In this document: piece by piece, positions 39,874-40,214 of the stretch | Numbering within the stretch: position 1 is the first letter of the stretch | How the letters are laid out: every line of letters begins with the position of its first letter | Virus record (IMG/VR): IMGVR_UViG_2695420763_000017 | Coordinates: 1-46,150 of that record | Direction: 5' to 3' (one strand) | Source: a virus | Lineage: Duplodnaviria > Heunggongvirae > Uroviricota > Caudoviricetes | Length of the DNA: 46,150 bases | Notes under the pieces: model-generated | Told to the model about the DNA's origin: nothing | Databases searched by the model: none | Seen by the model: the letters and a program-made list of their open reading frames with translations, nothing else | Translations under genes and position numbers: made by a program

Positions 39874-40214
39874 GGTAGACGGTTGGTAGACAGATTCACT
39901 TAACCCTCTACCAACCATCTACCAATTAATATTTTGAATTATAAAGATATTTTCAATGTGGTAGAGAGGTAGACAGTTATTTCTATATTCCTAAACCACG
40001 GGGGGTATATAAAAAACAGATAGTTAAGGGGGCATTTTTTAAATTTCTCTTTTAACTGTCTACACTGTCTACCATTTAGTAAAAATCATTAATTATCAAT
40101 GTATTAATGCGGTAGACCGTTGGTAGACAGTTTGCAGATTGTTTTTTTGTTATGTGTTAATAACATTAAATAAATCAATCAATTATATCGGTAGACAGTT
40201 GGTAGACAGTTGTA
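39874..40214. repeat. iteron cluster, putative replication origin
   Basis: GGTAGAC(N)GTTGGTAGACAG direct copies at 39874, 40111 and 40191, inverted copies near 39907 and 40056, a variant at 39959; AT-rich spacers. Confidence 0.6.

What the first reader, a model, noticed from the sequence alone, without database searches (positions are those of the whole stretch)
39874..40214. Iteron-type origin immediately downstream of the primase/helicase gene
Seen: at least six copies (direct and inverted) of a 20-bp unit GGTAGACNGTTGGTAGACAG separated by AT-rich spacers, starting 28 bp after the primase stop. Established: P4 and many satellite or plasmid replicons place iterons bound by the initiator next to its gene. 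Inference: this is the element's ori.
Basis: partly seen in the sequence, partly recalled or inferred. Interest (0 to 1): 0.45.

Follow-up and report, generated by a model that had tools for sequence, protein, structure and literature searches.

The report
Replication origin of a phage-satellite island
The repeats are real and are almost certainly the replication origin of an E. coli phage-inducible chromosomal island, the same kind of origin already shown to work in the related island EcCICFT073, so this is a sound but ordinary finding.

Summary
Observation confirmed. Twelve GGTAGAC-type half-sites, arranged as six pairs (four direct, two inverted), fill 39874-40209. They start 28 bp after the stop of a 601-aa gene and are separated by three 82-85% AT spacers. 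Nothing comparable occurs elsewhere in the 46 kb.

Interpretation supported, with corrections. The window is E. coli DNA: an SfV-like prophage followed by a ~16.8-kb island (P4-type integrase, AlpA, initiator, ProQ/FinO, PerC) at tRNA-Thr. The island has the gene order of EcCICFT073. For that island, published work showed that pri-rep plus the adjacent iteron region replicates a plasmid. Its origin uses the same GGTAGAY half-site.

The window's initiator is 49% identical to P4 alpha over the helicase and origin-binding domain (PDB 1KA8, E 7e-19). Across ~90 related loci the repeat word follows the last ~37 residues of the initiator, not the rest of the protein. One variant tail is matched by a concerted change in 8 of 10 repeats.

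Corrections:
- The likely DNA-binding domain is C-terminal, not N-terminal.
- No canonical primase domain is detectable, only a minimal Toprim-like fold.
- In P4 the array at this position is crr, not ori.

Verdict: a new member of a known kind; low to moderate interest.

The parts
38041..39846 (+). Initiator gene ('Pri-Rep', 601 aa). Domains: Toprim-like N-domain (aa 1-130), D5_N plus SF3 helicase (aa ~141-490), winged-helix origin-binding domain (aa 491-592).
39730..39843 (+). Variable C-terminal tail of the initiator (aa ~564-601, ...RAKCTKGPDKGRVITNVLLDDDADGWLPAATGINDRT). Inferred to be the iteron-specificity determinant (the wing after the third helix of the winged helix).
   Evidence: DNA homology to TGTTCAC-class loci ends at 39728-39730, and the L002 remnant begins at 39738. 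Tail class predicts the repeat word in ~90 loci. The 'wing' assignment is inferred from the alignment to 1KA8; the single-sequence model was unusable.
39874..39893 (+). Iteron pair 1: GGTAGACGGTT GGTAGACAG, half-sites 11 bp apart.
39904..39923 (-). Iteron pair 2, inverted: GGTAGATGGTT GGTAGAGGG, 11 bp apart. Forms a 94%-complementary inverted repeat with pair 1.
   Evidence: (I6).
39924..39959 (.). AT-rich spacer 1 (85% AT over 39920-39959), a candidate unwinding region.
   Evidence: Duplex-stability profile.
39960..39977 (+). Iteron pair 3: GGTAGAGA GGTAGACAGT, half-sites 8 bp apart.
39978..40053 (.). Central segment without half-sites. Contains conserved G-runs (CCACGGGGGG...AAGGGGGCATTTTTT). 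Role unknown.
   Evidence: conserved in all window-type relatives.
40054..40074 (-). Iteron pair 4, inverted: TGGTAGACAG TGTAGACAGTT, half-sites 9 bp apart; one half-site is degenerate.
40075..40110 (.). AT-rich spacer 2 (82% AT over 40070-40109). Contains an exact IHF-core consensus match at 40094-40106.
40111..40130 (+). Iteron pair 5: GGTAGACCGTT GGTAGACAG, 11 bp apart.
40131..40189 (.). AT-rich spacer 3 (85% AT over 40140-40189; least stable 40-mer in the array). Contains an exact IHF-core consensus match at 40173-40185.
40190..40209 (+). Iteron pair 6: GGTAGACAGTT GGTAGACAG, 11 bp apart. Invariant in all seven window-type copies aligned.
39731..40213 (+). Exchangeable cassette: the last ~37 codons of the initiator plus the whole iteron array.
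   Evidence: Left homology break at 39728-39738 and right break at 40212-40214 in independent relatives.
40230..41044 (+). Downstream ProQ/FinO gene (40218 or 40230 to 40760) and PerC gene (40757-41044). These are context genes; they do not covary with the repeats.
   Evidence: Pfam. RefSeq annotation of L001. L003 has these genes at 95% identity behind quite different repeats.
31521..34298 (+). Left end of the island: 42-nt tRNA-Thr 3' fragment (31521-31562), P4-type integrase (31733-32947), int-alpA RNA (32992-33059), AlpA regulator (34101-34298).
   Evidence: The same island lies at thrW in strain 4314.

Best explanation
The array at 39874-40209 is the replication origin of a ~16.8-kb phage-inducible chromosomal island (PICI-type satellite) integrated at tRNA-Thr.

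Shown here:
- The array consists of 12 half-sites in 6 pairs with three AT-rich spacers.
- The upstream gene encodes a P4-alpha/EcCICFT073-type SF3 helicase with a C-terminal origin-binding domain.
- The repeat word covaries with that protein's C-terminal tail.
- The tail and the array are inherited and exchanged as one cassette.

Shown by others for a homolog: Pri-Rep plus its adjacent iteron region is enough for plasmid replication in E. coli.

Inferred mechanism:
1. After the island is induced and excised, the winged-helix domains of the initiator bind the paired half-sites. Most pairs are 11 bp apart, about one helical turn, so both sites face the same side of the DNA.
2. Direct and inverted pairs on either side of the AT-rich spacers position helicase rings in opposite orientations.
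3. The AT-rich DNA melts and the self-loaded SF3 helicase unwinds in both directions.
4. Priming comes either from the minimal Toprim-like N-domain or from host DnaG. This step is unresolved.
For: Repeat statistics.

Island context: int, AlpA and the int-alpA RNA are present. Gene order is the same as EcCICFT073. Att repeats give ~16.8 kb.

Experimental precedent: the EcCICFT073 pri-ori plasmid replicates at the restrictive temperature, while the delta-pri and delta-ori versions do not or do so poorly. [quoted passage not shown]

Same half-site: GGTAGAY occurs 11 times in the EcCICFT073 gap and appears in the published deletion primer.

Initiator homology: Pri-Rep is 43% identical to EcCICFT073's and 49% to P4 alpha's helicase plus origin-binding domain. 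It matches 1KA8 at E 6.7e-19.

Generality: all 86 related loci have a 5- to 10-copy word within the 420 bp after the gene, against 2-3 elsewhere.

Covariation:
- Tail ...CTKGPDKGR.ITNVLL goes with GTAGAC; tail KRKTKHGLRSNVTL (P4-like) goes with TGTTCACC.
- The two classes are interleaved on the core tree. TGTTCAC-class cores are 95% identical to the window's, while some GTAGAC-class cores are 89-92% identical.
- L059 has KKRTTAGV in place of KRKTKHGL in the tail, and 8 of its 10 iterons read TGTTCA-TT/TA instead of TGTTCA-CC at unchanged positions.

No linkage to flanking genes: L003 has DUF4222 plus the N-domain at 97% identity and ProQ/PerC at 95%, but a different helicase and GGTTGTCTCA repeats.

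SaPI precedent: SaPI Reps recognise iterons through a C-terminal winged helix and are self-loading helicases (PMC9371898).
Against: - There is no experiment on this particular array.
- Within the window-type copies (92-100% identical) the half-site core is only marginally better conserved than the spacers: 4 of 60 against 41 of 252 variable columns, p = 0.07.
- In P4, the closest characterised initiator, the array at this position (crr) is a required cis element but not the start site.
- EcCICFT073's tail differs from the window's although both read GTAGA, so the tail is not a simple recognition code.
- The island shows no recognisable capsid-morphogenesis gene, terS or cos in the part inside the window, so it may be a decayed or atypical PICI.
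Confidence: 0.85

Rival explanations
1. The array is a crr-like cis-acting replication enhancer rather than the start site. The initiator binds it, but DNA synthesis begins at another site on the island, as in P4, where alpha binds both crr (next to the gene) and ori (4.5 kb away).
For: By position the array corresponds to P4 crr, which starts 46 bp after the alpha stop. The initiator is 49% identical to alpha over the helicase and origin-binding domain.
Against: There is no second cluster of GGTAGAY sites in the window or in the complete 16.8-kb island of strain 4314, only isolated singletons. The EcCICFT073 pri-rep plus adjacent-region fragment alone supports replication (PMC6092414). The array contains its own AT-rich, low-stability spacers.
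Confidence: 0.07
2. The repeats are mainly transcriptional operators: sites where the initiator or another regulator controls the downstream ProQ/FinO-PerC genes, or autoregulates pri-rep. They would have no essential role in replication.
For: The array fills the whole gap up to the ProQ ribosome-binding site. No terminator follows pri-rep, and weak promoter-like hexamers overlap pairs 3 and 4.
Against: Promoter-like sites are no more frequent than in shuffles: 3 against 1.9. The repeats do not covary with ProQ/PerC or with upstream genes, only with the initiator's tail. The homologous array in EcCICFT073 is needed for replication. A secondary regulatory role is not excluded.
Confidence: 0.05
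3. The array is a packaging (pac/cos) or partition site recognised by a helper-phage or island protein.
For: Satellites must carry packaging signals, and none has been located in this island.
Against: There is no terminase or Par gene next to the array. The repeat word tracks the helicase tail. A different repeat array, which sits next to an HTH/terS-like gene at 44056-44272, is a better packaging candidate.
Confidence: 0.02

Closest known systems
EcCICFT073 pri-rep-ori module (Gram-negative PICI replication origin; Fillol-Salom et al. 2018, PMC6092414)
   Same: - Same gene order: int, alpA, Icd-like, DUF4222, Pri-Rep, gap, then PerC further on.
- The origin lies directly 3' of the initiator.
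- Same GGTAGAY half-site, in direct and inverted pairs with AT-rich DNA between.
- The initiators are homologous over their full length (43% identity).
   Different: - The array is longer: 336 bp against about 220 bp.
- The dominant unit is a direct pair at 11-bp spacing, against mostly 9 bp in EcCICFT073.
- The C-terminal tails differ; the window's has a 5-residue GPDKG insertion.
- ProQ/FinO follows the origin here instead of an SSB.
- The attachment site is thrW.
- No capsid genes are seen in the window.
- This copy has not been tested experimentally.
Satellite phage P4 alpha protein with ori and crr
   Same: - The helicase plus origin-binding domain is 49% identical.
- The C-terminal domain matches the solved P4 origin-binding domain (1KA8).
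- An iteron array sits within 50 bp of the initiator's stop codon.
- Sister loci of the window's initiator even use P4's own TGTTCACC iteron.
   Different: - P4 has two arrays (ori and crr) 4.5 kb apart; there is one here.
- P4's iteron is TGTTCACC; the window's is GGTAGAC.
- P4 alpha carries a Zn-ribbon plus Toprim primase that is missing here.
- A terminator separates alpha from crr in P4; none was found here.
- P4's sid, delta and psu genes are absent.
SaPI Rep/ori (Staphylococcus aureus pathogenicity islands)
   Same: - Self-loading SF3-type initiator-helicase with a C-terminal winged helix that reads 6-12 short iterons.
- The iterons lie immediately downstream of rep and flank an AT-rich region, with sites in opposite orientations (PMC9371898).
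- The helicase core aligns with PriRep5, PDB 7OLA.
   Different: - Only distant sequence similarity (E 9e-10, helicase core only).
- SaPI iterons are 5-6 bp.
- The primase is a separate or AEP-type domain.
- Gram-positive host and divergent transcription layout.

Membership tests
PICI replication module (Pri-Rep + ori), EcCICFT073 type | Origin located immediately 3' of the initiator gene | tested here: met
   The first half-site starts 28 bp after the stop codon.
PICI replication module (Pri-Rep + ori), EcCICFT073 type | Multiple iterons in both orientations flanking AT-rich DNA | tested here: met
   12 half-sites (8 plus-strand, 4 minus-strand) and three 82-85% AT spacers.
PICI replication module (Pri-Rep + ori), EcCICFT073 type | Initiator homologous to a validated PICI Pri-Rep, and iterons related to its origin | tested here: met
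   43% identity over the full length. GGTAGAY half-sites are present in the EcCICFT073 gap and in the published primer.
PICI replication module (Pri-Rep + ori), EcCICFT073 type | Iteron sequence specific to the cognate initiator | tested here: met
   Tail and iteron covary across ~90 loci, including a concerted change in L059.
PICI replication module (Pri-Rep + ori), EcCICFT073 type | The pri-rep-ori fragment replicates autonomously, and deleting the origin abolishes this | not testable with these tools
   Shown only for EcCICFT073 (PMC6092414).
PICI (island as a whole; SatelliteFinder core components, PMC10085698) | Integrase, AlpA/MerR/Stl-type regulator and primase-replicase, transcribed in one direction, with att flanks and a size of 7-20 kb | tested here: met
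   int, AlpA PF05930 at E 2e-19, Pri-Rep. All are on the + strand. A tRNA-Thr fragment and a 19-bp att repeat give ~16.8 kb.
PICI (island as a whole; SatelliteFinder core components, PMC10085698) | Capsid-morphogenesis gene and small terminase (or a helper cos site) | tested here: inconclusive
   Only a weak terS-like match to an HTH protein (phrog_57, E 2e-6). No lambda-type cos core in the island part of the window. The last ~2.2 kb of the island lie outside the window.
PICI (island as a whole; SatelliteFinder core components, PMC10085698) | Induction, packaging and transfer by a helper phage | not testable with these tools
   A related initiator is present in a 16.5-kb 'induced prophage' record, LR881103, but that is a different island.
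P4-type replicon (alpha + ori + crr) | Alpha-type SF3 helicase with a C-terminal winged-helix origin-binding domain | tested here: met
   49% identity to alpha aa 322-769. 1KA8 match at E 6.7e-19.
P4-type replicon (alpha + ori + crr) | N-terminal DnaG-type primase (Zn ribbon plus Toprim with the EGYATA motif) | tested here: not met
   [not shown]
P4-type replicon (alpha + ori + crr) | Two separated iteron arrays (ori and crr) of type-1 repeats TGTTCACC | tested here: not met
   A single array of GGTAGAC sites; no second cluster in the window or in the full island in L001. P4 layout.
P4-type replicon (alpha + ori + crr) | P4 hijacking genes (sid, delta, psu) | tested here: not met
   None is annotated in the complete island of strain 4314 or found among the window ORFs scanned.
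Classical iteron plasmid origin (Rep_3/pi/TrfA type, DnaA-assisted) | Rep_3-type initiator and DnaA boxes next to the iterons | tested here: not met
   The initiator is an SF3 helicase. There is no DnaA box with 1 or fewer mismatches inside 39847-40217; the nearest are at 39494 and 40893.

The most novel reading that the evidence does not exclude
The last ~37 codons of the initiator plus the entire iteron array (39731-40213) form a self-contained 'origin-specificity cassette'. It has been swapped repeatedly between otherwise near-identical initiators of PICI, capsid-forming PICI and P4-like satellites.

One widespread version of this cassette uses P4's own TGTTCACC iteron, so different satellite families in one cell could fire or compete for each other's origins. 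The window's GGTAGAC version would be a way of escaping such cross-talk.

Separately, these initiators may have lost primase activity: the N-domain is a minimal Toprim fold with Ala at the expected catalytic Glu position, and the same N-domain is shared by three unrelated helicase types.
Probability: 0.4. Interest if true: 0.45.

Novelty: new member of a known kind. Interest (0 to 1): 0.25.

Why it matters
The finding identifies the cis-acting site and the likely DNA-reading part of the initiator for a satellite-type island. Full-length copies of this region occur in about 94 of 5,426 complete E. coli genomes, and partial matches in about 970. That is useful for annotation, since these islands are usually labelled 'defective prophage' and the gene 'DNA primase'. 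It also helps in designing replication and incompatibility experiments. It does not change what is understood about how such islands replicate. The natural tail and iteron swaps offer a ready-made set of specificity variants for studying how a winged-helix initiator reads its origin.

Tried and rejected
- Megablast of the region against annotated phages: no match.
- Rfam over the island: only the int-alpA RNA. The one hit in the repeat region was a sub-threshold plastid family (E 0.49), taken as chance.
- Promoter and terminator scan of the gap: no enrichment over shuffles.
- Conservation of half-sites against spacers among 92-100% identical copies: too little divergence, p = 0.07 for the 5-bp core and no signal for the 7-mer.
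- Genome-collection scan with the full-length alignment: the tool chose N-terminal patterns and returned only one locus. I repeated it on viral contigs with the helicase plus origin-binding part, which gave 80 loci.
- Single-sequence AlphaFold model of the C-terminal domain: pLDDT 37, unusable. The 'wing' assignment therefore stays an inference.
- DnaA boxes: none in the array.
- Lambda cos core: none in the island part of the window.
- Ubeda 2007 and 2012 (SaPI origin papers) are not held in the library.
- A P4-style second array (ori plus crr) was considered and rejected.

Full report
**1. The observation**

The sequence at 39874-40209 holds twelve copies of a half-site with consensus tGGTAGACAgt, arranged as six pairs.

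| Pair | Coordinates | Strand | Half-site spacing |
|---|---|---|---|
| 1 | 39874-39893 | + | 11 bp |
| 2 | 39904-39923 | - | 11 bp |
| 3 | 39960-39977 | + | 8 bp |
| 4 | 40054-40074 | - | 9 bp (one half-site degenerate) |
| 5 | 40111-40130 | + | 11 bp |
| 6 | 40190-40209 | + | 11 bp |

- Exact GGTAGAC occurs 10 times in the window, 8 of them here, against 2.2 expected for the whole 46 kb.
- A weight matrix built from the sites finds no other cluster anywhere in the window.
- This is the only 420-bp stretch where a G+C-containing 7-mer reaches 7-8 copies; the background is 2-3.
- Three spacers (39920-39959, 40070-40109, 40140-40189) are 82-85% AT and about 3 sd less stable than the window average.
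- The stop codon of the upstream 601-aa ORF is at 39844-39846, so '28 bp after the stop' is correct.

The only refinement is that the unit is a ~9-bp half-site used in pairs.

**2. Context**

The window is E. coli chromosomal DNA.
- Positions 1 to ~31.5 kb are an SfV-like prophage (97% identity, 79-85% coverage).
- A 42-nt 3' fragment of tRNA-Thr lies at 31521-31562.
- A separate island follows, with a P4-type integrase (31733-32947), the int-alpA RNA (RF02996) and AlpA (34101-34298, PF05930).
- It continues with an AntA-type protein, an Icd-like peptide, DUF4222, the 601-aa protein, the repeats, ProQ/FinO and PerC.

In strain 4314 the same island (99.9% identical) sits directly at thrW without the prophage. 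There it is bounded by a 19-bp att repeat, which gives about 16.8 kb. The last ~2.2 kb therefore lie beyond the window. Full-length copies of the 4-kb region around the repeats are present in 94 of 5,426 complete E. coli genomes, and partial matches in 967.

**3. The upstream protein**

Residues 141-592 are 49% identical to residues 322-769 of phage P4 alpha, which cover the D5_N region, the SF3 helicase and the origin-binding domain. Residues 491-592 match PDB 1KA8, the solved P4 origin-binding winged helix, at E 6.7e-19. The helicase core also matches SaPI5 PriRep5 (7OLA, E 9e-10).

P4's primase part (Zn ribbon at 30-66, Toprim at 210-299) has no counterpart here. The first ~140 residues hit no Pfam or NCBIfam model even at E up to 1.
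- An AlphaFold model of that N-domain built on 30 homologs is confident (pLDDT 89.7).
- It is therefore a minimal Toprim-like fold without a zinc ribbon.
- From the sequence, the residue before the conserved Gly at the end of strand 1 (VIIFAG) is a nearly invariant Ala. P4 alpha (EGYATA) and Toprim enzymes have the catalytic Glu there. This last point is my inference, not a structural alignment.

'Helicase and origin-binding initiator' is well supported. 'Primase' is an inherited label that is not verified.

**4. What the array is: experimental precedent**

Fillol-Salom et al. 2018 (PMC6092414) state that in E. coli PICIs the region immediately 3' of the initiator gene is the origin, with iteron sets flanking an AT-rich region. 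They showed that an EcCICFT073 pri-ori fragment maintains a temperature-sensitive plasmid at 44 C, whereas the delta-pri and delta-ori versions do not, or do so much less well.

I fetched EcCICFT073 (L006).
- It has the same gene order as the window's island.
- Its Pri-Rep is 43% identical over its full length.
- Its 288-bp gap contains eleven GGTAGAY half-sites in direct and inverted pairs.
- The published deletion primer that anneals there contains GGTAGACAGGGTAGACAG.

The window's array is thus a relative of an experimentally validated origin and uses the same core half-site.

**5. What the array is: comparative test**

Every relative examined has its own repeat set right after its initiator gene.

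| Initiator type | Locus | Repeat word |
|---|---|---|
| DUF927 | L003 | GGTTGTCTCA |
| DUF927 | L004 | TAACCCGCA |
| DUF927 | L005 | GGGACAAG |
| CFT073-like | L002 | GGTAGAY at 9-bp spacing |

In 86 loci carrying this helicase family, the 420 bp after the stop codon hold a word repeated 5-10 times (median 9), against 2-3 in 2,006 control segments.

The word is predicted by the last ~40 residues of the protein:
- tails of the type ...CTKGPDKGR.ITNVLL... go with GTAGAC;
- P4-like tails ...KRKTKHGLRSNVTL... go with TGTTCACC, which is P4's own type-1 iteron.

This is not simply clade structure. On the helicase plus origin-binding core, TGTTCAC-class proteins are 95% identical to the window's, while several GTAGAC-class proteins are only 89-92% identical. 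L013 (TGTTCAC class) clusters with L037 (GTAGAC class).

The DNA homology breaks are sharp and recur:
- TGTTCAC-class loci lose homology at window 39728-39730 (codon ~563);
- a gene remnant in L002 that retains the window-type array begins at 39738;
- ProQ-side homology in loci with other initiators begins at 40212-40214.

The unit of inheritance is therefore the last ~37 codons plus the array.

The most telling case is L059 against L067. Their cores differ at 15 of 440 positions. The tail has KKRTTAGV in place of KRKTKHGL. At the same positions, 8 of 10 iterons read TGTTCA-TT/TA instead of TGTTCA-CC. That is a concerted, compensatory change between the protein and its DNA sites.

By contrast, L003 shares the upstream DUF4222 and N-domain region (97% identity) and the downstream ProQ/PerC genes (95%) with the window, yet has a different helicase and unrelated repeats. 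The array therefore belongs to the initiator and not to its neighbours.

**6. Mechanism**

Shown:
- the anatomy of the array;
- homology of the initiator's C-terminal domain to a solved origin-binding domain;
- covariation of the array with that domain's tail;
- sufficiency of the homologous module in EcCICFT073 (shown by others).

Inferred:
- After induction, the winged-helix domains bind the paired half-sites. Eleven-bp spacing puts both sites on one face of the helix.
- Opposed pairs around the AT-rich spacers load two SF3 rings, as proposed for SaPI Reps (PMC9371898).
- The AT-rich DNA melts and replication proceeds in both directions.
- The variable tail begins right after the third predicted helix of the domain. 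In a canonical winged helix that is where the beta-hairpin wing sits (PMC2777425). I could not confirm this structurally.

Unresolved: how priming occurs.

**7. Rivals**

- *crr-like enhancer.* In P4 the array next to alpha is crr, and initiation occurs 4.5 kb away. Here there is only one array, both in the window and in the complete island, and the EcCICFT073 fragment is sufficient on its own. This rival is unlikely but only replication mapping can exclude it.
- *Operator for proQ-perC.* There is no covariation with those genes and no promoter enrichment. A secondary regulatory role remains possible.
- *Packaging or partition site.* There is no support. A second repeat array at 44056-44272 is a better packaging candidate.
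- *Classical DnaA-assisted iteron origin.* There are no DnaA boxes in the array and the initiator is a helicase.

**8. Novelty and verdict**

The kind of element is known and has been functionally validated in a homolog. This copy is a new sequence variant: 11-bp direct pairs, a longer array and a distinct tail. The binding domain is C-terminal, the primase assignment is unverified, and the element is PICI-type rather than P4-type, with P4's adjacent array being crr.

The modular tail-plus-origin cassette, and the use of P4's iteron by many PICI-like islands, are the most interesting by-products. I could not establish whether they have already been described.

Noticed in passing
window 44056-44272: A second repeat array on the island: AAAAGTGTCAA six times (five direct, one inverted). 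It lies immediately after a 181-aa HTH protein gene (43505-44050) that has a weak small-terminase-like match. It may be a packaging or operator site.
   Followed up: partly
[not shown]
   Followed up: partly
L013 11690-11960; L032-L094 (downstream of pri-rep): Many PICI- or cfPICI-like loci whose initiator cores are 90-95% identical to the window's use TGTTCACC, the type-1 iteron of phage P4, together with a P4-like C-terminal tail. This raises the possibility of cross-recognition between P4 and PICI replicons.
   Followed up: partly
window 40094-40106 and 40173-40185: The only two exact matches to the IHF core consensus (WATCAANNNNTTR) in the 46-kb window both lie inside the origin, each 5 bp upstream of an iteron pair. 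The total count equals the chance expectation, and the local AT-richness may explain the placement.
   Followed up: no
window 39978-40053: The central part of the origin lacks half-sites but has conserved G-runs (CCACGGGGGG...AAGGGGGCATTTTTT) in all window-type relatives. Its role is unknown.
   Followed up: no
L002 3412-4492: Strain ETEC1732 carries two GTAGA-type arrays in tandem: its own (9-bp spacing) after a CFT073-like Pri-Rep, then a pseudogene remnant and an orphan window-type array. It looks like a fossil of a cassette exchange.
   Followed up: partly
L095 ~830-1600; hits H13 and H16: IS1 is inserted inside the repeat region between pri-rep and proQ in strain 2024CK-00475. IS3 interrupts the same 4-kb region in two other strains. 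Some copies are probably inactivated.
   Followed up: partly
window 1-31562: An SfV-like myovirus prophage (97% identity to SfV and SKA5) lies in tandem with the island at the same tRNA-Thr (thrW) site. Only a 42-nt tRNA fragment separates them. Whether this phage can act as helper is unknown.
   Followed up: partly
window 32992-33059: A match to the int-alpA RNA family (RF02996; 45.5 bits against a 35.8 gathering score) lies just after the integrase gene, as is typical of P4-integrase islands.
   Followed up: no
window 35169-36755: The 528-aa ORF is probably not a real gene. Only its last ~50 residues match the Icd-like cell-division inhibitor. In relatives this stretch is annotated as a short Icd-like gene, with YlcI/YnfO-family genes on the opposite strand.
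   Followed up: no
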